DNA of 64,000 nt. Source: Octopus sinensis (Eukaryota). The stretch spans positions 11,780,001 to 11,844,000 of the forward strand of contig NC_043014.1 in the NCBI RefSeq assembly GCF_006345805.1. Reading direction: 5' to 3'. Of the stretch, positions 8,231 to 49,661 are shown in pieces (the stretch's first letter is position 1; each line of letters begins with the position of its first letter). The notes under the pieces were generated by a model, which was given only the letters and a program-made list of their open reading frames with translations, was not told where the DNA came from and did no database searches. The position numbers and the translations under genes were made by a program.

Positions 8231-8484
8231 TACATTTTTTCTTCGTTCATTCAGACGTTTGTTTATTCATTGTCAAAAGAGCTTCGTCGTCGACCTCTGG
8301 ACACACTCACCTCACTCAAGGAATTGATCCTAATCTCAGGTATTTCATATTTTTCTTTGGTAACTCCTGATTTTTGTAACTTTTCTTTGATTATTTCTTC
8401 TTTATGTTTTCTTCAAAATTTTCTTAAACTTCTCTCTTATTTATATATACAGTTTTGTTTATTCTATTTTATATATATATATAT

Positions 8485-8723
8485 GATACAGATAAGGAAA
8501 TAATTTTATTCTCAAACGCAGAATAATGCTAATAATATAGCATGAACAAGATAAACTATCCATATTTTGCAGAAAAATCTGTCGGCGACCAGTCATGAGA
8601 CACGAACTCACATGCCTGGCCGCCGATAGATTTTCCTGCAAAATATGGATAGTTTATCCTGTTCATGCTATATTATTAGCATTATCCTGCGTTTGAGAAT
8701 AAAATTATTTCCTTATCTGTATC
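8485..8723. repeat. Near-perfect ~240-bp palindrome next to (TA)n
   Basis: gatacagataaggaaataatttt... pairs with ...aaaattatttccttatctgtatc over about 110 bp with few mismatches. Confidence 0.9.
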
Positions 8724-8956
8724 TTTCATTACATTTCAACGCTTCTGAAGCAAACTTTGTTGACTTTCAACGTAAGCTGAATTTAATATATATATATATG
8801 TTTAAGTAGTTGAATGAATTATCCTAGTATGGATAATTCGCTTAACCGATACCCGGGTAGCAAATTTACGTCAGAAAGCACGGTTGAAGCTACATGCCAA
8901 GGGCAGAAATCACGTGCTTTCGTGTGGAAATTTGTGTGTTTTTTTACTATAGATAA

Positions 8957-9144
8957 ATGAAAGAATGGAGTCGAACGACGATTTAACAAAATTCCTTTAT
9001 TCTCGACACATGTTTCGAAGACTGCATATTCTTAATTCCGAAGGCATAATGCACCCTTTATTCCTTCGGAATTAAGAATATGCAGTCTTCGAAACATGTG
9101 TCGAGAATAAAGGAATTTTGTTAAATCGTCGTTCGACTCCATTC

Positions 9145-9150
<6 letters not shown>
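8957..9150. repeat. Perfect 88-bp-arm palindrome, probable inverted Penelope-like terminus
   Basis: Arms 8957-9044 and 9063-9150 are exact reverse complements. The right arm has GAAAC-ATGT-GTC (3' half of a hammerhead) and runs into (TA)n. Confidence 0.85.
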
Positions 9151-9212
<62 letters not shown>

Positions 9213-9358
9213 CTTACAAGTAAAATAGAACCACTTTTTGGGAATTCATCTTTGAAGGCTATTCCTATACGATCTAGAAAGGAATATATTTTATATAATT
9301 TTTCTAAATGCTATAATTAAATTTTTCAATATTGAATTGATAAAAGGTGGTTTATTTC

Positions 9359-9425
<67 letters not shown>

Positions 9426-9434
9426 CATATATAT

Positions 9435-9767
9435 AACGTTCCATCTGAAAAGGAAAGTCGGGCTGAAGAGAAGGTGTCTGTCAGAGTGTACGTACAAAAA
9501 AAAATGGATACGTGTTGCCCGGATGCTGGGGAGTGAAAGGCCTTGTGCGAATACGGTGTAAGGACTTCCAAAAGGAGTCAGTTAAAAAGACAAGGCTCGT
9601 GGGGTCGGAGCACACTTGTTTTTTTTAACCTACCTCATATTGTCCTTTTATTGTTTGTATTGTAATTTGTGTTTTATCGGTTTTATAATCATTTTTATAT
9701 ATAATTTTATAACCTCATTCGATGTACATGACCCCTCTATGTTGGCCCTTTATGGGCAATAAAGAAT
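9435..9767 (+). mobile_element. Tx1/L1-like LINE 3' fragment
   Basis: Reads TFHLKRKVGLKRRCLSECTYKKKWIRVARML, then a T-rich 3'UTR ending cccctctatgttggccctttatgggcaataaagaa. Confidence 0.55.
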
Positions 9768-10404
9768 ATATATATATATATATATATAAATAATAAATAT
9801 TAGGGAATAAATCCAAATTTACAGGGAAAAAATCAGATTTAGGATTAAATCCAATTTTATAGTAAAATATTATAAAATATTATTAGAGACAAAACCACTA
9901 TTTTGCAAAACAAACAAGGAAAGACTTAATCAATACATAAAATTTTAATAAATAAAGTAAGGTATCGCAGGATGTTTATTGGCTTGACCGGGCCTAATAC
10001 CGTTTGTTGAATACTTTCTTGTAAACTGTTTTAAACATTTTCTTATTATTATCAAAGAATGTATATATGTATTTTAATGACAACCAGTACTTAACACAAC
10101 AAAGCTTTTACAAAGCTTTACATTTTACTTTTGACAATCTTTTTCTAAAAAAGTGAAACCGTCAAGTGAATAAACATCTTTGAAATTGCATTTTCAAGCC
10201 TTCTTTCATATATATCATATTTATTCAGGCTCTTTGCGATGAGTTCAAATCCCGCCGAGGTCGACTTTGTCTTTCATCACTTCACAGTCGATAAAATAAA
10301 ACAGGCACTCCGTCAGTTACGACGACGAGTGTTCCAGTTGATCCGATCGACAGAACAGCCTGTTAGGGAAATTAACGTGCAAGTGGCTGATTACTCCACG
10401 GACT

Positions 10405-10446
<42 letters not shown>

Positions 10447-10464
10447 CACAAACACACTAGCCTG

Positions 10465-10970
10465 TGGAGGCGCGTGGCTTAGTGGTTAGGATGTCAGCAT
10501 CATGATCGTAAGATTGTGGTTTCATTTCAGGTTGCTCCAGTCCACTCAGCTGGCAAAAATGAGTAACGCTGCGATGGACTGGCGTCCCGTCCAGCTGGGG
10601 AACACATACGCCATAGAAACCGGGAAACCGGGCCCATGAGCCTGGCTAAGGGTTTAAAAAGGGCGCATGGAGGCGCAATGGCCCAGTGGTTAGGACAGTG
10701 GACTAGCGGTCGGAGGATCGTGGTTTCGATTCCCAGACAGGGCACTGTGTGTATTTATTGAGCGAAAACACCTAAAAGCTCCACGAGGCTCCGGCAGGGG
10801 ATGGTGGCGACCCCTGATGTACTCTTTCACCACAACTTTCTCTCTCTTTCTCTTCCTGTTTCTTGAGTAACGCTGCGGTGGACTGTCGTCCCGTCCAGCT
10901 GTGAGGAACACATACGCCACAGAAACCGGGAAACCGGGCCCATGAGCTTGGCTAAGCTTGAAAAGGGTGA
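10465..10970 (+). mobile_element. Nested or fused tRNA-SINEs, families C (gtccttgagcaa..ctccagtccactcagctg) and D (ggaggcgcaatggcccagtggttagg)
   Basis: Pol III A/B boxes. Homologous copies at 23767-24015, 40426-40758, 42030-42421(-), 46407-46740, 52703-53092(-), 62290-62445. Confidence 0.8.
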
Positions 10971-11881
10971 CGTTTATCGTTTTTTATACTAACTTATAAT
11001 AATTTTTTTCAAATCGATTTATACGAGATTTAAGTTAATGAGCTGGCAGAATCCTTTGCTTAGCGACATTTATTCTGGCTCTTTGCGATGAGTTCAAATC
11101 CCGCCGAGGTCGACTTTGTCTTTCATCACTTCACAGTCGATAAAATAAAACAGGCACTCCGTCAGTTACAACGACGAGTGTTCCAGTCGATCCGATCGAC
11201 AGAACAGCCTGCTAGTGAAATTAACGTGCAAGTGGCTGATTACTCCACGGACACGCGTAGCCTTAATGTAGTTCTCAGGGAGATTCAGCGTGAGACAGAA
11301 ATACTGATACAACTCATTTTTGCCAGCTCAGTGTAGTGGAGTAAAGTGAAATAAAGCAACTTGCTCAACGACATAACACACTGCCTGGGATCGAACTAAT
11401 GACCTGAATATCCCAAACTGCTAGCTGAATACCCCTAACCACTAAGCCACAGGCATCCACGGAGTAACACCCGGAATAACAGAAGTCGGCAGGTCCGGTC
11501 ATTAGATGCATAGTAATGACAGACGGTGATAAGATCAGAGAGCACCGACCTGTGAATGTCACGATTTTGTAGGAAAAACCTTAGGAAGAAAGGAATAAAA
11601 TTACATCAGAACAAATTGAGAAATTGGTCAAATCCTGTGGACGGAGATGTGCTGAAGTCATTAAAAATACAGGAATGTACACATCTTATAAATATATCGA
11701 TGTTGATTATAAAAATTCCAGGCAAAATTTTGATTTCTTGAGTTTTACGTCATGCATTCTCTAATTTTGCCCATCTTGTATTTTTCAAATAAACATTTTT
11801 TCTATTATATATAGTAGCATAAGTGGCAACCAGTGATTATGTATAAACGAATTTTGGGTTAGTTAAAAAATATGTTTCTAA

Positions 11882-12239
11882 AGGCAAATGCACAGCAGCT
11901 ACCATGGGGTAAAAAATTCTCTCTTATGGTAGATGTAAAAACACCGTATCTGCCTCTAGCAGATTCCCAGATGTGCGTTTCTGGCTCTTAAGCCTTCCTC
12001 ATTGGTAAATACTGAAGAGAAATAACTATGGGCAGATTCAAAGTCGTAGCTTTAACTAAAGAACAGACAACATTAGTGACTGGTTCTCTCTTCGGTATTT
12101 CCCATTGAAGAAAGCTAAGGAAACGGAAACGTGGGTCTAAGAATCCGCTAGAGGAAAGCACTGGGCAGATATGGTGTTTTTATACCATTTTACCGTTAGG
12201 AAGAATCTTTCCTCCACGGTAGCTGTAGTGAATTTGCCT
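11882..12239. mobile_element. MITE with long imperfect TIRs (possibly PIF/Harbinger-like)
   Basis: aggcaaatgcacagcagctaccatgg...aaaacaccgtatctgcc pairs with ggcagatatggtgtttt...ccacggtagctgtagtgaatttgcct. Confidence 0.6.
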
Positions 12240-12270
12240 TCAGAAATTAAATGTCACAAAACATATTTTA

Positions 12271-12623
12271 AACAAGTGCACTCAGAGAGCGCAACACTAA
12301 CGTCCTCTCAACGATTAGCCGGAGATGATTTTTAAAATGAGAATATCTGAAATAAAAACTTGACTGCTCTCTCACAAACGAGAATGCTAAAAATGAACCC
12401 GACTGCTCTCAAAAATTAATTAAAAAAAACCCCCGGAAAAATAATCCAGAATCTTTGTCCAGTACCGGATCGATCCCAAAATCTAATCAGCTCGTGTCAG
12501 TCACGAGGCCAAACATTACTGAAAGTTTCAGCCGGATCCATCAAGTGGTTCTTGAGATATCCTGTCCAAACAAACAAACACAACTGAAAACAATACCTCT
12601 GCCTTCGCTAAGGCGGAGGTAAT
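12271..12623. mobile_element. Non-autonomous Helentron-type (HINE/DINE-like) element
   Basis: Starts aacaagtgcactcagagag, has internal (CAAA)n, and ends in hairpin acctctgcctt-cgct-aaggcggaggt followed by aat. Confidence 0.55.
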
Positions 12624-13387
12624 AGCCTAAAGTTCGTTTATTCCTAACGATAACTTCAAAATTGAAATCAAAGAAATTGCTGATGGCACGTATGATAGCT
12701 AAAATAAGTAAACATCTGAAAATCTTTTAAACCATGCACTATGAAATAATGCTGGTTATGGAGGACATATATTGAAAGTTTAAAAGTGTTAACAACTTTG
12801 AGAAGTATAATTGATGTTTAGATAAAAGGATACAAAGGGAACGAGTGGAATAAGAGACGGACATTTGAACAACGTAAGAGTTTAGAGCAAATCGACAAAA
12901 ATCCGAAAGGTAATGGATTGAATGTAAACAAGAAAGAATTGACAATAGAAGTTGTACACAATGATACGCTGATAAAAGGAAAAGAAGTAGACTGCTGTTT
13001 CGGGTGATCTGTTTTGAGTAAGAAGCAAGATAAAGGAAACAAGGAAAACGATGCTATAATATATAAAGCATGGGTGGGAGGGGGGTAAAAGAGAGAAAAA
13101 GAGAGAGGAAAATAACGTGAAGATAAGGTCAACAGGTTGTGAGATGGTACCTGCTTTCTCATTAATAATTAACAAAACGAACACATTCGATAAAATATTC
13201 GCTTTGAATTTTATCGGCCCCCGAAAGGAAGAACGTTATACTTTTTAGGAGAAAGGAAATAGGAAATAGCAGTTACTATCCAAGGACAAAAATCGTGTTA
13301 CACAGTGTAATCTTTGATTTCACTGTTCAACACGAGGTACTTAACATAGAGCTATGTGGACTTGGCTGTAGATAGCTGTTTAAGTGA

Positions 13388-13803
13388 AGGCAGCGAGCTG
13401 GCAGAAACGTTAGCACGCCGGGCGAAATGCTTAGCGGTATTTCGTCTGCCGCTACGTTCTGAGTTCAAATTCGCTGAGGTCGACTTTGCCTTTCATCCTT
13501 TCGGGGTCGATAAATTAAGGACCAGTTACGCACTGGGGTCGATATAATCGACATAATCCGTCTGTCTGTCCTTGTTTGTCCCCTCTGTGTTTAGCCCCTT
13601 GTGGGTAGTAAAGAAATAGATATTTCATCTGCCGCTACGTTCTGAGCTCAAATTCCGCCGAGGTCGACTTTGCCTTTCATCCTTTCGGGGTCGATAAATT
13701 AAGTACCAGTTTTGCACTGGGGTCGAAATAATCGACTTAATCCCTTTGTATCTCCTTGTTTGTCCCCTCTATGTTTAGCCCCTTGTGGGCAATAGAGAAA
13801 TAA
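13388..13803 (+). mobile_element. Family-A SINE dimer
   Basis: One head and two body-tail units. TSD agatagctgtttaagtg on both sides. Confidence 0.9.
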
Positions 13804-14774
13804 GATAGCTGTTTAAGTGTACAATAACCATGGATGCACCACAAGCGACGCAATAGAAATGGTGACATGACACAAACCGACGAACCCCCACTTTCGTCTC
13901 TGACGCTAGGACTCTCCTCTGCGTATCATTGCTAATTAATTTGTCGACCCTCTCCTCCGCTGCCGCCACCGCCACCTCACCTGTCATCAATCCAAAATGA
14001 TGGCACGCGTTGTCAATCTCGGTACATTTGAACACAATACATAAAACGAAAGTGAATTAAATTCTGCCCGTCTCTCGTTTTGTTTTACTGCTGTTGTCCC
14101 ATTTAAAACATTTCGAATTATCTATTATATTTTACTCGCTGTCGCTGCTCCTCTCTTTCGTACTGCAATCAAAAGTTGTTGACAAGAACTGTCCAATAAG
14201 CAACCAATTAGCCGAATTTCTTTTAAGAAGCAGTAATTTGACACGTTACATTTTCTTCCTGTTGCATAATTATAGTACGATCGTTAGGTGCCAAGATAGA
14301 AAAAAAAAACAAAAACAAAAAATAAAATATATATAAAAATATAATAAATGGTCGTTTGAAACAAGTTGGCACCTTTTACTTGTAATGTCTTCATAAACTA
14401 TAACCCACCAATCTTTCTCTTTCTCTCCTTCTTTTCTCTTCCCCACTCTCTCTCTCTCTCTCTCTCTCACGCACATACGAACACAGGTACGCAAAGACAA
14501 TAAATAAAGAAAATTTGGTGTTTTATTGTATATTTTGCGAAAACAAAATGCTGTTAAATGAAAGCTTGGTAAAGGAATTAAGTGACGTTGTTGCCAAGAA
14601 TATGTCACACGCTTATTGAAAGATCCACTCTTAAGTAGTGTGAAGATACGGACAATAATTTCTAATATGGGTGCAGAGGCTTTTTTTATTTCGAGAAATG
14701 ACTCAGTCATTTGAGTTTGTATCCCGTGCTTAATTGGTAATTATTTTATTGATACATATGGTGGCGAGCTGGAA

Positions 14775-15369
14775 GGCGGCGAACTGGCAGAAACGTTAGC
14801 GCGCCGGGCGAAATGCTTAACGGCATTTTGCCGTTACGTTCTCAGTTCAAATTCCGCTGAGGTCGACTTTGCCTTTCATCCTTTCGGGGTCGATAAATTA
14901 AGTACCAGTTTCGCACTGGGGTCGATATAATCGACTTAATCCGTTTGTCTGTCCTTGTTTGTCCCCTCTGTATTTAGCCCCTTGTGAATAGTAAAGAAAT
15001 AGGTATTTCATCTGTCGTTACGTTCTGAGTTCAAATTCCGCCGAGATCGACATTGCCTTTCATCCTTTCGGGATCGATAAATTAAGTACCAGTTACGCAC
15101 TGGGGTCGATGTAATCGACTTAATCCGTGTGTCTATCCTTGTTTGTTTTGTCTGTGTTTAGCCCCTTGTGGGTAGTAAAGAAATAGGTATTTCATCTGTC
15201 GTTACGTTCTGAGTTCAAATTCCGCTGAGGTCGACTTTGCCTTTCATCCTTTCGGGGTCGATAAACAAAGTACCAGTTACGCACTGGGGTCGATATAATT
15301 GACTTAATCCGTTTGTCTGTCCTTGTTTGTCCCCTCTATGTTTAGCCCCTTTGTGGGCAGGAAAGAAAT
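14775..15369 (+). mobile_element. Family-A SINE trimer (184-bp repeat units)
   Basis: Junction aagaaatagg|tatttc at ~15001 and ~15185. Confidence 0.9.
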
Positions 15370-15714
15370 ATATGGTGGCGAGCTGGCAGAATCGTTACCC
15401 TTACGGATAAAATGCTTAGCGGACTTTCTTTCAGTTTTGCGTTCCGAGTTCAAATTCCACCAAAGTCGACGTTGTCTTCCATATTTTCGGGGCGAAAAAC
15501 TACGCGTCCTTTCCCTCCGTTGGTCAGTTGAAGCTTAGATAGTGTCACGTGACAGTTAGCTGGTGTTGGCTGCTGGAGCCTACCGGCGAATATTTAAAGG
15601 GAAATTTAGCAGGATGGTCATTCGCCCGCTGACATTCGTTGACGCTCCATCGAAGAAACCAAAGGAAAAAAAGGAGAAAGAAAAATAAAGGAGAAAGGGA
15701 AAACGCACTGAACA

Positions 15715-15870
15715 CCAGAGCTGATGACACCTTCGAAGGTTGGGGGGAAATCGAAAACGGTAGAGGAGGGGCCGAAACCGAACGTGGTTCCTTCTGATGA
15801 TGTTTTTAGCCACTGGATCCTATAAAGGAGCTGTTGAAGTAGCGAACCACGAAACGTGGTTAGAATTCCT
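15715..15870 (+). ncRNA. Cluster of hammerhead core motifs (Penelope-like LTR remnant)
   Basis: CTGATGA at 15721 and 15794, CTGTTGA at 15831, GAAA(C) at 15747, 15774 and 15851. Confidence 0.4.
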
Positions 15871-17068
15871 CAGTGCCAACTGAGCACTGGGACCGATGTA
15901 TTTGGCTAGACCCCTTTCTATAAAATTCAAGTGTTGTGCCTATAGTAGAAAGGATTATATTGATACTTATGATGGCGAGCTGGCAGAATCAAAAGCACGC
16001 CGGAGAAAATGCTTAGCGGCATTTCTTTCGGTTTTATGTTCTGAGTTCAAATTCTGTCGCTGTTTACTTTACCTTTCAACCTTTCGGGGGTTGAAAGCAT
16101 GTCAACGATTCTCCTCCCGCATTGAAACAATCATTAAAACCTTCGGCTTTAATGATTGCTTCAATGAACAACTGCACAAATTTTAATTAATTTTAATTAG
16201 TTTTTTTAATTTTAACTTTTAATTAGTTTGGGTTTTGCAAGACTGGAATCCTCAAATAGTCCGCTGCCCTAATCACTGGGCCATTGCCCCTCCACAAATA
16301 TAAATATATGTATATATATAAACACATACACACATACATATACATATATATATATATTCACGTGTACACACGTACACGCACAACAATTACGTGCACACAC
16401 ACAAGTCAACACTTATACATAACACAGATTTTTTCATATAAAGCATGTATACCTATATATATATGCACACATATATATGTGTGCGTGTCTGCACACACAG
16501 ATAAGGAAACAAATACGCATACATGGATAATACATACATACATACGCAAAATTGTACAATCACCTTCTAAAAAGAATATTAGGTATAGGTTACGTAAAGT
16601 TAAAAAAAAGAAAAATCTGATTATTTAAATATTTTAAAAAATAGATAACGTTCTGTATAATCTAATTAAATCGATCTAACAGAAAAATCTAAGATGTTTT
16701 ACTTCTAAAAGAAAAGACGATTGTATCAATATAAATAGAGCTGAAATTATTTAAGTGCTAAGGTCGCTTGTATATTCAAAAAATATTTCCAGTTAATGTA
16801 TAAGGGGAGGTAAATATAGTAATTATTAAGTAACGTTTAAAGAGTATTAAATTAAGTATTTAGATATATATATATATATATATATATGTTTATATATTTA
16901 TGTAGTTATAACTTAGCATAGACTATCAAGAACAAAGTAATTGAAAAAATAATAAGTATAAAACTTTTTTTATCAATGCAAGCACTAACTGATCTATATA
17001 CACTTATGTGTGCTTATCAAAAGTGCACACGTACTAGTTTATACCTATACCTACATTTACATAGGTTC

Positions 17069-17099
<31 letters not shown>

Positions 17100-17672
17100 A
17101 GGATATGTATTCAACAAGAACCATGCATATGAATTAATAAGTATAAGTATGTGTATATAAGTATGTATATATATATATATGTGTGTGTGTGTGTGAGCGC
17201 GTATGTGTTTACATGTATATATATATATTTATATTTAGATGTGTATATCTATGTGTATGTATATATATATATATATATATATACTTTATTTTAAGCAGCA
17301 GAAAATTCAACAAAATCTGTTTTTCTGCCGCTTAAAATAAAGCATATTACTCTACCACTGGTATTTGAGTACTCTTTTTTCCACCTTGTTTCACATTTAT
17401 GTGTTTACTCCGGTATATATATATATATATATGCACTGAATTAAAAAATGAATGCCTTTTGACCAGTGTTAATATAAGCTTACTCTTTTACTTGTTTCAG
17501 TCATTTGACTGCGGCCATGCTGGAGCACCGCCTTTAGTCGAGCAAATCGACCCCGGGACTTATTCTTTGTAAGCCCAGTACTTATTCTATCGGTCTCTTT
17601 TCCGAACCGCTAAGTGACGGGGACGTAAACACACCAGCATCGGTTGTAAGCAATGCTAGGGGACAAACACCA

Positions 17673-17732
<60 letters not shown>

Positions 17733-17936
17733 TACGACGGGCTTCTTTCAGTTTCCGTCTACCAATCCACTCACAAGGCTTTGGTCGGCCGAGGCTATAG
17801 TAGAAGACATTTGCCAAGGTGCCACGCTGTGGGACTGAACCCGGAACCATGTGGTTAGCAAGCTACTTACCACACAGCCACTCCTGCGCCTATGTATACA
17901 TGTATTTATATTTAGATGTTTATATCTATGTGTATG

Positions 17937-17975
<39 letters not shown>

Positions 17976-18162
17976 GCACTGAATTAAAAAATGAATGCTT
18001 TTTGACCTGTGTTAATATATGTTTATATACTATTTTTATATAAGTTTCCCCCAGCTTTATAAACAATTTACCTAACTATTTATGTTATCTCCTCATTCAT
18101 ACGATACCCTTATTCATTGTAATTTACTATTCAGCTTCTGTTTATTTACCTATTATTACCCT

Positions 18163-18244
18163 ATCCCACCGAAGAAATTTTGCTTGATATAATGATTTTA
18201 TTACTGTTTAATCTATTAAGCCTAATTGAAACAGCTGTAAGGAC
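18163..18244 (+). ncRNA. Minimal type-I hammerhead-like motif, copy 1 (core mutated to CCGAAGA)
   Basis: CCGAAGA 18169-75, stem II, GAAA 18228-31, palindrome CAGCTG, TA, aggac. Confidence 0.55.
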
Positions 18245-18501
18245 CATGTTTGAATCTTGCACATAATGAATTTTTATCAAACGCTGTATCTTCATATTCT
18301 TACTTTCTTTTTATGATAATAAACAATGGTTTATATACTAATTACCTTAATTATATTCACATAATATCCATTACACACTAAAACAACCTATAACCCCTTA
18401 ATCCGGGCATATACCAATATTAGCCATAAAATAATACTCAGTCTGCTGTGATGATTCAAAAATGCAACACTTAAAATCTAACGGTATATATTTTTTCTAT
18501 C

Positions 18502-18582
18502 CCTCTGAAGAAATTTTGCTTAATATAATGATTTTATTTATTTCTATTTAATCTATTAAGCCTAATTGAAACAGCTGTAAGG
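18502..18582 (+). ncRNA. Minimal type-I hammerhead-like motif, copy 2 (intact core)
   Basis: cct-CTGAAGA-aatt..gcttaata...tattaagc..aatt-GAAA-CAGCTG-TA-agg. Confidence 0.65.
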
Positions 18583-18652
18583 ACCATGTTTAATTTTTGC
18601 AGATAATATTTTTTTATTAAATGTTATATCTCCATTTTCATACTTTCCTTTA

Positions 18653-18717
<65 letters not shown>

Positions 18718-18722
<5 letters not shown>

Positions 18723-18990
18723 GGAAAGTGTATATATATATATTTAAAGGAAAGTGTATATATATATATTTAAAGGAAAGTGTATATATATTTAAAGGAA
18801 AGTGTATATATATTTAAAGGAAAGTGTATATATATATTTAAATGAAAGTGTATATATATATTTAAAGGGAAGAGTATATACATATATATTTAAAGGGAAG
18901 TGTATATACATATATATTTAAAGGGAAGTGTATATACATATATATTTAAAGGAAAGTGTATATACATATATATTCAAAGGAAAGTATGTA
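18718..18990. repeat. Minisatellite, 11 units of ~22-28 bp (ttaaaggaaagtg + (TA)n)
   Basis: Direct count of units. Confidence 0.92.
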
Positions 18991-19208
18991 ATATATATAT
19001 ATATATAATGAAACCAAGTTTAGTATGATGGCCGTGCACGCTTTATAACATGTAGTACTATCGAATATCAAATAATTTATTCATTTTCGACGTATACCAA
19101 ATGCATAACTATTTCCTTCTTTTATTTTGCACATTGTAGACGAAGATAACAAAATATATCTTAAGATAACCAAACACAGAAACGAACGCAATAACAAAAA
19201 GCTCAGCC

Positions 19209-19352
19209 ATGGCCGTTGTTGTTGATTGTCAAGTTGGAGAAACCCCAGAGATTCTTTTTGAGAGCCTCAATGATTCTCTCGGATGGGAAATGACTGAATC
19301 GATCGATGACATATTTGTCTTTACACTGGAACTAACTAAAAAAGCCGGAAAG
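19209..19352 (+). CDS. IMPA: Inositol monophosphatase, first coding exon (MAVVVDCQ...EMTESIDDIFVFTLELTKKAGK)
   Basis: ATG in gccATGG context, 48 open codons, phase-0 donor AAG|GTAAAA. The last 21 aa parallel the first coding exon of vertebrate IMPA1 (M...AVTLARQAGE). A polypyrimidine tract plus TAG acceptor ending at 19139 implies an upstream non-coding exon. Confidence 0.85.
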
Positions 19353-19826: not shown

Positions 19827-19926
19827 NNNNNNNNNNNNNNNNNNNNNNNNNNNNNNNNNNNNNNNNNNNNNNNNNNNNNNNNNNNNNNNNNNNNNNNNNN
19901 NNNNNNNNNNNNNNNNNNNNNNNNNN
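19827..19926. other. Assembly gap (100 N placeholder)
   Basis: Run of exactly 100 N inside the IMPA gene. Confidence 0.99.
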
Positions 19927-20026
19927 GTATAGGTCTACACAATAATCCAAGAGAAACTTTATTCTGCTAAGAAAGGCCAAGGTGCATATTGTAACAGTGA
20001 AGAAATATCAGTATCAGGACAAACAG
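19927..20026 (+). CDS. IMPA: IMPA internal exon, 5' end lost in the gap (VYTIIQEKLYSAKKGQGAYCNSEEISVSGQT)
   Basis: The frame from 19933 matches the IMPase VY...YxAxKGxGAxCNG motif. Donor CAG|GTGAG, phase 1. Confidence 0.92.
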
Positions 20027-49546: not shown

Positions 49547-49661
49547 TTGGCTCTGACGAAAGTAGCATTAATTCTTTTTTAGGTCGTTCTATTTTTTCTC
49601 AGCTGATTAATTGACCAATTGAGTAAACCTATAATGCTTACTGGAAACAGCTGTAAGCCAA
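49547..49661 (+). ncRNA. Type-I hammerhead-like ribozyme motif with an extended stem II
   Basis: ttggct-CTGACGA-a-agtagcatta...taatgcttact-g-GAAA-CAGCTG-TA-agccaa. Stem I is a perfect 6 bp. Confidence 0.7.

What the first reader, a model, noticed from the sequence alone, without database searches (positions are those of the whole stretch)
18163..18650. Tandem hammerhead pair upstream of the first IMPA coding exon, on the sense strand
Seen: two direct repeats 340 bp apart, each with core, stem II, GAAA, CAGCTG and TA. Copy 2 has an intact CTGAAGA but only a 3-bp stem I; copy 1 has CCGAAGA. Known: minimal PLE hammerheads with a palindromic stem III cleave as dimers. Inference: a cis pair in the likely first intron could dimerise through CAGCUG and cut the pre-mRNA about 560 nt before the acceptor, or release a ~340-nt retrozyme-like unit. 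The mutations may reflect selection against cleavage.
Basis: partly seen in the sequence, partly recalled or inferred. Interest (0 to 1): 0.75.

Follow-up and report, generated by a model that had tools for sequence, protein, structure and literature searches.

The report
Worn retrotransposon hammerhead pair in intron
Two damaged copies of a small self-cutting RNA motif sit 340 bases apart in an intron of the inositol monophosphatase gene; they are part of a common repeat, likely a dead Penelope-like jumping gene that duplicated its own end, and are predicted to manage at most one slow cut that would likely not matter to the gene.

Summary
Two type-I hammerhead motifs with an ACAGCUGU palindromic stem III lie on the sense strand of a 10.8-kb IMPA 5'-UTR intron (8340-19139), shown by a spliced RNA contig. 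They belong to a dispersed repeat family of several hundred copies, about 10% diverged, with one hammerhead per element. Its anatomy is Penelope-like (5' truncation, 23 of 63 sampled places as inverted pairs, microsatellite ends), but no linked ORF was found. Copy 1 is an extra 177-nt piece (18164-18340) set inside the element between 9-nt duplicates. It shares 8 non-majority states with copy 2, so it is likely a same-source duplication and not a retrozyme unit. In a cis dimer each core cuts the other copy's site. Copy 2's intact core could cut after A18239 through a 3-bp stem I. Copy 1's core (U4C, A·A closing pair) is unlikely to cut after 18579, so release of a 340-nt unit is unlikely. Mutations are not enriched in catalytic positions (2 of 14; 0 of 9), and IMPA mRNA is spliced across the pair. 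The scan has already reported decayed Penelope-type hammerheads in introns of other genomes. Ordinary; cleavage is untested.

The parts
8255..8339 (+). IMPA 5'-UTR exon (3' end shown; 5' end inferred from a candidate acceptor at 8253-8254)
   Evidence: The loose end of RNA contig X4 before 19138 matches window 8308-8337 (sequence)
8340..19139 (+). 10.8-kb GT..AG intron of the IMPA pre-mRNA holding the element
   Evidence: Splice junction in the X4 contig; GT and AG read directly
16297..17099 (-). Inverted 5' part of the same repeat element
   Evidence: Reverse match to the upstream part of family loci L054/L092, L055 and L091, 68-73%
17055..18163 (+). Body of the element upstream of the insertion point, interrupted by a hairpin insert (about 17283-17413), a SINE-like repeat (about 17480-17895) and a local duplication
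   Evidence: BLAST to family loci; repeats D1 and D11
18155..18163 (+). Left 9-nt duplicate (ATTACCCTA); its last 3 nt are a microhomology with the start of the inserted piece
   Evidence: Window against uninterrupted family copies L005 and L008
18164..18340 (+). Extra 177-nt piece of the element's 3' end (copy 1 plus tail), nested in the element
   Evidence: Family copies join 18163 directly to 18330-18341 (DNA joints)
18164..18243 (+). Hammerhead copy 1: U4C core, A·A at the stem I closing pair, intact helix II, palindrome and GUA site (after 18239)
18341..18349 (+). Right 9-nt duplicate (ATTACCTTA, 1 mismatch)
18341..18651 (+). Remaining 3' part of the host element, ending in (TA)n
18500..18583 (+). 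Hammerhead copy 2: intact core, 3-bp stem I, helix II, palindrome, GUA site (after 18579)
19140..19352 (+). First coding exon of the IMPA-like gene (ATG at 19209)
   Evidence: In RNA contigs of 4 of 4 runs; a downstream exon at 23347-23562 matches Pfam Inositol_P, E 2.2e-15

Best explanation
The pair is a worn copy of a dispersed repeat, likely the non-coding 3' end of a Penelope-like retrotransposon, that sits sense in an IMPA 5'-UTR intron and holds a nested 177-nt duplicate of its own hammerhead end; it is likely neutral and predicted to make at most one slow cut, after A18239. Shown: the family, the one-hammerhead layout, the nested insertion with 9-nt duplicates, the intron and the lesions. 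Inferred: the family is PLE-derived; the duplicate came from the same source element at or soon after insertion (template jump during reverse transcription, or a local repair event); the lesions are ordinary decay. Predicted: in nascent RNA the two ACAGCUGU palindromes can pair into an 8-bp stem III, so that copy 2's core can act on copy 1's site through a 3-bp stem I, while copy 1's core is crippled. A slow intronic hammerhead cut is expected to be tolerated by splicing.
For: Dispersed family: 46 matches from 40 scored of 585 candidates, 78-91% identity among the main hits; 561 candidates for the downstream tail; 470 exact hits of a 17-mer across the site against 0 for the control, sister families included. 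One hammerhead per element; other copies join 18163 to 18330-18341. Of 63 distinct places: 38 solo, 23 inverted pairs (22 plus L011, which the script misfiled), 2 direct (this one and a 1.4-kb whole-locus duplication). Sister hammerheads with the same or a 1-off palindrome lie 1.1-1.3 kb downstream of a GIY-YIG-like frame in 3 of 30 loci. Copies 1 and 2 share 8 non-majority states, the second-highest of 496 pairs. None of 57 other copies has all of them (best 6 of 9 columns, one of them a poly-T gap). Divergence from the family majority is 5-13% across the element. No enrichment of lesions in functional sites. Spliced IMPA contigs in 4 of 4 RNA-like runs. PLE min-HHRs are slow even as dimers (PMC4209133, parts 1-2 of 4 read). 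Splicing survived intronic cleavage by a hammerhead but not by the faster HDV ribozyme (PMC2995048, passages citing Dye 2006 and Fong 2009).
Against: No autonomous element or ORF was tied to this exact family: PLE ORF fragments appear in 2 of 86 family-search loci (L050, L056) and none in the window, and they may be separate insertions. The tree does not resolve copies 1 and 2 as sisters. Copy 1 carries 26 nt of family tail that copy 2 lacks, so a plain copy of today's copy 2 is excluded. Copy 2 has 0 of 9 private changes in functional sites, which is also compatible with constraint (p 0.22). The copy-2-core on copy-1-site ribozyme costs 2.85 kcal/mol in a trans-dimer model, better than the family median of 5.7 and within the range 0.7-11.9 of 24 scorable homodimers, so it is not clearly dead. 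No diverged species could be compared.
Confidence: 0.8

Rival explanations
1. The nested duplicate made a working cis double hammerhead by chance. Copy 2's core cuts after A18239 in nascent IMPA pre-mRNA often enough to lower or tune mRNA output, and the arrangement may be kept for that.
For: Sense strand of a transcribed intron. The palindromes pair in cis in the minimum-energy fold of 18150-18660 with P about 0.92. Copy 2's core, helix II and both palindromes are intact. The 2.85 kcal/mol cost ranks joint seventh against 24 family homodimers. U4C can keep some activity in vivo in a viroid (PMC3088659, passage).
Against: In cis the active fold costs about 5 kcal/mol at 37 C and 7-11 at 20 C. 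Palindrome pairing falls to 0.05 with 17900-18900 as context and is as good with shuffled spacers (median 0.98, 22 of 30 at 0.9 or more), so the spacer is not tuned. Stem I is 3 bp against 4 bp in 15 of 28 intact family copies. mRNA is spliced across it. Slow hammerhead cuts did not block splicing (PMC2995048, passages).
Confidence: 0.08
2. The pair is a two-hammerhead non-LTR retrozyme that releases and circularises a 340-nt RNA from the intron.
For: The spacing (340 nt) and low GC fit the 150-450 bp retrozyme range (PMC7229834, passages), and there are 9-nt duplicates.
Against: The 340-nt stretch is a chimera of tail (18240-18340) and element body (18341-18579). Sequence upstream of copy 1 does not repeat the sequence upstream of copy 2. 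2 of 63 places are direct repeats and none is an array. The cut after 18579 depends on the crippled core.
Confidence: 0.04
3. The pair was once active and harmful to IMPA, and host selection fixed the inactivating changes (U4C, A·A closing pair, shortened stem I).
For: Both functional-site private changes of copy 1 hit the one ribozyme half, and the shared deletion shortens stem I.
Against: 2 of 14 is what 34 of 156 sites predicts (p 0.75). 19 of 45 unselected family copies have a core change anyway. The palindromes, where one change would stop dimerisation, are intact.
Confidence: 0.08

Closest known systems
Hammerheads in pseudo-LTRs of metazoan Penelope-like elements, variant with a small palindromic helix III (Cervera and de la Pena 2014, PMC4209133; parts 1-2 of 4 read: abstract, results, discussion, start of methods)
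   Same: Type-I topology, short helix I, long helix II, palindromic helix III/loop 3, mostly solo or close opposite-strand pairs from truncated elements, high sequence heterogeneity, dimer-dependent design.
   Different: No G10.1-C11.1 pair (A-U here; G-U in 44 of 57 family copies), no extra base after A9 in my register, 3-bp stem I, U4C in copy 1, and no RT/GIY-YIG ORF tied to this family.
EN+ PLE insertions with 5' truncation, partial tandems, inverted 5' copies and (TA)n targets (Craig et al. 2021, PMC8557442; passages)
   Same: 5'-truncated copies, inverted 5' junctions in 23 of 63 places, microsatellite ends, hammerhead near the 3' end; the window's element has an inverted 5' part.
   Different: The extra copy lies inside the element between 9-nt duplicates, not upstream of it as a pseudo-LTR.
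Metazoan non-LTR retrozymes (Cervera and de la Pena 2020, PMC7229834; abstract and passages)
   Same: Type-I hammerheads a few hundred bases apart, low GC.
   Different: No head-to-tail units or arrays, a non-canonical hammerhead, one core crippled, no circRNA evidence.
Conserved intronic hammerheads of amniotes, RECK and C10orf118 (PMC3088659 and PMC6765202; passages)
   Same: A repeat-derived hammerhead in an intron.
   Different: Those are single, canonical, active in vitro (C10) and conserved across mammals; this pair is decayed, multi-copy and shows no tested conservation.

Membership tests
PLE-associated palindromic type-I hammerhead | Core C3 U4 G5 A6 N7 G8 A9 / G12 A13 A14, A15.1-U16.1, H17 (copy 2) | tested here: met
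   all 12 positions match; 34 of 57 family copies are also intact
PLE-associated palindromic type-I hammerhead | Same core (copy 1) | tested here: not met
   U4C
PLE-associated palindromic type-I hammerhead | Palindromic helix III/loop 3 able to form a dimer helix | tested here: met
   ACAGCTGT in both copies; cis pairing P 0.002-0.93 over the contexts and temperatures tried
PLE-associated palindromic type-I hammerhead | Long helix II | tested here: met
   4 bp + 8 bp; the 8-bp part has P 0.94-0.99 in both copies; covariation at the one variable pair tested is not significant (p 0.31)
PLE-associated palindromic type-I hammerhead | Helix I of 4-5 bp | tested here: not met
   3 bp with copy 2's 5' strand, no closing pair with copy 1's; 4 bp or more in 19 of 28 intact family copies
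PLE-associated palindromic type-I hammerhead | G10.1-C11.1 pair and an extra base after position 9 | tested here: not met
   A-U in both copies; family G-U 44, A-U 6, G-C 5 of 57; no extra base in this register
PLE-associated palindromic type-I hammerhead | Self-cleavage as a dimer | not testable with these tools
   Only contigs were available; no raw reads, no bench data
Penelope-like element insertion | 5' truncation, inverted 5' copies, microsatellite targets, hammerhead near the 3' end | tested here: met
Penelope-like element insertion | RT plus GIY-YIG ORF in the same element | tested here: inconclusive
ORF fragments in 2 of 86 loci may be separate insertions. Sister hammerhead families follow a GIY-YIG-like frame in 3 of 30 loci (Pfam GIY-YIG E 0.026, below the cut-off)
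Metazoan non-LTR retrozyme | Head-to-tail tandem units of 150-450 bp, each with a hammerhead | tested here: not met
   2 of 63 places direct, none an array; the spacer is a chimera
Metazoan non-LTR retrozyme | Two active ribozymes that release a monomer | tested here: inconclusive
   Predicted not: copy 1's core has U4C and no closing pair; activity itself is untested
Metazoan non-LTR retrozyme | Abundant linear or circular monomer RNA | not testable with these tools
   Contigs cannot show this
Exapted intronic hammerhead (RECK/C10orf118 type) | Conservation of the motif across diverged species | not testable with these tools
   No relative genomes held; the 3 DNA-size runs are identical to the window over copy 1, so they give no divergence

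The most novel reading that the evidence does not exclude
A chance nested duplication in a dead retroelement built a complementing cis double hammerhead, in which one copy gives the catalytic core and the other the cleavage site. It cuts the IMPA pre-mRNA once, after A18239, and so tunes inositol monophosphatase output: a host-gene rheostat born from a PLE ribozyme that elsewhere lacks a partner.
Probability: 0.05. Interest if true: 0.7.

Novelty: new member of a known kind. Interest (0 to 1): 0.2.

Why it matters
As it stands this is one more family of Penelope-type hammerheads, which are already known in their thousands in animal genomes. The only unusual point is the geometry: a short, direct, sense-strand pair (the only such case among 63 places sampled) gives the dimer-dependent ribozyme a partner in cis inside a host pre-mRNA. 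That makes it a cheap natural test of whether PLE hammerheads can cut host transcripts. If the cut were fast enough to change IMPA mRNA, it would be a rare example of a dimer-type PLE ribozyme acting on a host gene. The evidence here does not point that way.

Tried and rejected
Rfam scans of the window and of 18100-18660 gave no hammerhead family; the long helix II and dimer-type stem III probably escape the models, so this was not counted against the motif. Walking the family 5'-wards for an ORF ended in non-coding sequence. A maximum-likelihood tree of 32 copies had 25 of 29 inner branches open and did not place copies 1 and 2. The test for extra conservation of the core across 45 unselected copies was not significant (28 of 536 = 5.2% against 245 of 3415 = 7.2% in flank columns after dropping columns with over 20% minority states; p 0.10), nor was covariation in helix II. 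A same-strand triple of the 17-mer at C3:68.51 Mb is a 99.6% identical 884-bp triplication holding another hammerhead family, not an array of this one. No run holding the stretch is on record as RNA. RNA contigs show no locus-specific cover of the pair, which is no evidence either way. Two short X4 contigs with 3 differences each end at 18239 and 18579, but DNA contigs break nearby too (18236, 18573-18582) and contigs cannot show RNA ends; not used. The PDB and Pfam searches with the 48-aa first exon found nothing; the gene identity rests on the downstream exon. Lunse et al. 2017 is not held and is known only through the review PMC6765202 (passages). No supplements were read; those of PMC4209133 may already list this family. 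Five paper searches showed no report of this locus or family.

Full report
Observation. The two motifs are present as described. Each reads stem I strand, C(U/C)GAAGA, a long helix II, GAAA, palindrome ACAGCUGU, A, stem I strand: a type-I hammerhead whose monomeric stem III is 2 bp. The predicted cut sites follow A18239 and A18579. The shared 12-mer occurs 3 times in the window against 0.28 expected; the third belongs to another hammerhead family at about 49550-49660. Helix II forms in both single-copy folds, but the overall energies are ordinary (z -0.63 and -1.06) and Rfam gives no hammerhead hit. Contigs of three DNA-size runs from two studies match copy 1 and its right junction without a difference, so the tandem is in the DNA; one run may be the source sample.

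Gene context. The exon 19140-19352 lies in 1.2-1.4 kb contigs of 4 of 4 RNA-like runs (RNA status is the tool's guess, but the contigs skip introns). In run X4 the 30 letters before it match window 8308-8337, which defines a GT..AG intron 8340-19139. The pair is therefore on the sense strand of a transcribed 5'-UTR intron. X4 has 163 nt upstream, while a candidate acceptor at 8253-8254 would account for only 83, so this may be the second intron (inference). A downstream exon at 23347-23562 matches Pfam Inositol_P at E 2.2e-15, which confirms the IMPA identity.

The repeat family. Searching the own genome with 18140-18660 gave 46 matches from 40 scored of 585 candidates. The tail found beyond the match in other copies gave 561 candidates. 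A 17-mer across the cleavage site has 470 exact hits against 0 for its control, sister families included. Other copies carry one hammerhead and run from the equivalent of 18163 straight into 18330-18341. They are variably 5'-truncated, end 70-220 nt past the hammerhead, usually in a microsatellite, and often come as inverted pairs joined at their 5' ends. Among 84 loci with a hit, merged into 63 places, 38 are solo, 23 inverted (the script gave 22 and misfiled L011) and 2 direct: this one and a 1.4-kb duplication of a whole locus. These loci are the best-scoring hits of my searches, not a random sample. The window's element also has an inverted 5' part at 16297-17099. This anatomy matches published PLE insertions (PMC8557442, passages; PMC4209133, parts 1-2 of 4). 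A direct link to an ORF was not found: PLE ORF fragments lie in 2 of 86 family-search loci and may be separate insertions. Sister hammerheads with the same or a 1-off palindrome lie 1.1-1.3 kb downstream of a GIY-YIG-like frame in 3 of 30 loci fetched with that frame; the Neptune-like label of that frame is my recall, and its Pfam GIY-YIG match is below the cut-off (E 0.026).

How the pair arose. Copy 1 is an extra piece, 18164-18340, set inside the element and flanked by ATTACCCTA and ATTACCTTA, a 9-nt duplication of the insertion point with a 3-nt microhomology at the left join. Copies 1 and 2 share 8 states that differ from the family majority, among them a 1-nt deletion that shortens stem I; that is the second-highest count among 496 pairs, and none of 57 other copies has the whole set. 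Against this, the tree does not resolve them as sisters, five of the shared states are common subfamily markers, and copy 1 keeps a 26-nt tail that copy 2 lacks. The copies now differ at 13% of aligned sites, about as much as each differs from the majority (13% and 10%). I infer a same-source duplication at or soon after insertion, followed by independent decay.

Can it cut? In a double hammerhead each core acts on the other copy's site. The palindromes pair in cis with P 0.92 in 18150-18660, but 0.05-0.72 in the other contexts at 37 C, and as well with shuffled spacers (median 0.98), so the pairing needs no special spacer. Copy 2's core with copy 1's site has an intact core and a 3-bp stem I. 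Its active fold costs about 5 kcal/mol in cis at 37 C (7-11 at 20 C) and 2.85 kcal/mol in a trans-dimer model, where 24 scorable family homodimers range from 0.7 to 11.9 with median 5.7 (4 of 28 could not be scored). These nearest-neighbour figures ignore Mg2+ and tertiary contacts. Copy 1's core with copy 2's site has U4C and an A·A mismatch at the closing pair; U4C is reported to lower activity considerably in vitro while leaving enough for viroid infectivity (PMC3088659, passage), and that paper rejects candidates with a mispair next to the core. One slow cut after A18239 is thus plausible; the cut after 18579 and release of a 340-nt unit are not. PLE min-hammerheads were slow even as dimers (PMC4209133), and an intron cut by a hammerhead was still spliced, whereas a fast HDV ribozyme blocked splicing (PMC2995048, passages citing other work).

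Selection. Private substitutions fall in the 34 core, palindrome and core-adjacent stem positions (of 156) in 2 of 14 cases for copy 1 (p 0.75) and 0 of 9 for copy 2 (p 0.22). Of 45 family copies not picked by a core pattern, 26 have an intact core and 19 do not, and the core is not significantly better kept than flanks (5.2% against 7.2%, p 0.10). There is no signal for or against cleavage, though power is low, and no diverged species could be compared.

Comparison and verdict. The motif works like, and by design belongs with, the PLE-associated palindromic type-I hammerheads, though these two copies fail the helix I and G10.1-C11.1 features and copy 1 fails the core. It is not a retrozyme unit by the tandem-array test. 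Earlier notes of this scan describe similar decayed Penelope-type hammerheads in introns of two other genomes (unchecked); none matched this sequence. The finding is a new member of a known kind, interest 0.2. The remaining bold reading, a complementing cis dimer that tunes IMPA, I put at 5%.

Noticed in passing
window 49549-49661 (+): A third type-I hammerhead of an unrelated family: GGCT/AGCC stem I, CTGACGA core, long helix II and the same ACAGCTGT palindrome.
   Followed up: partly
window 16297-17099 (-): Inverted 5' part of the same element, overlapping the forward part by about 200 nt of element sequence, as in PLE 5' inversions.
   Followed up: partly
window 17199-17482 and 17886-18025: A second local duplication in the same element, with a 130-nt hairpin-like repeat (17283-17413; near-identical copies in L051 and L089) and a SINE-like repeat between the parts.
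   Followed up: partly
window 19827-20026: A 100-N gap hides what should be several IMPA exons; the exon after it starts with an in-frame TAG or an extra base at the gap edge, possibly an assembly error.
   Followed up: no
L033-L040: A young family (about 24 near-identical hits) with GAAACAGCTGTA but no canonical CTGANGA at the usual place upstream; it may be one of the split-core hammerheads noted in earlier findings of this genome.
   Followed up: no
L113:1500-3170, L117, L120: GIY-YIG-like frame, then a long TG/TA-rich 3' region, then a compact hammerhead with the same or a 1-off palindrome: sister PLE families with the layout inferred for this one.
   Followed up: partly
L146 (G000:C3:68513-68516 kb): An 884-bp unit repeated three times at 99.6% identity, each holding a U4C hammerhead of another family on the same strand; recent triplication or assembly artefact.
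   Followed up: partly
G000:C3:125072240-125087891 (-): A second multi-exon Inositol_P gene in the genome.
   Followed up: no
window 18210-18239 and 18546-18579: Two very short contigs of RNA-like run X4, from other family copies (3 differences each), end exactly at the predicted cut position; likely graph branch points, but raw reads could test it.
   Followed up: no
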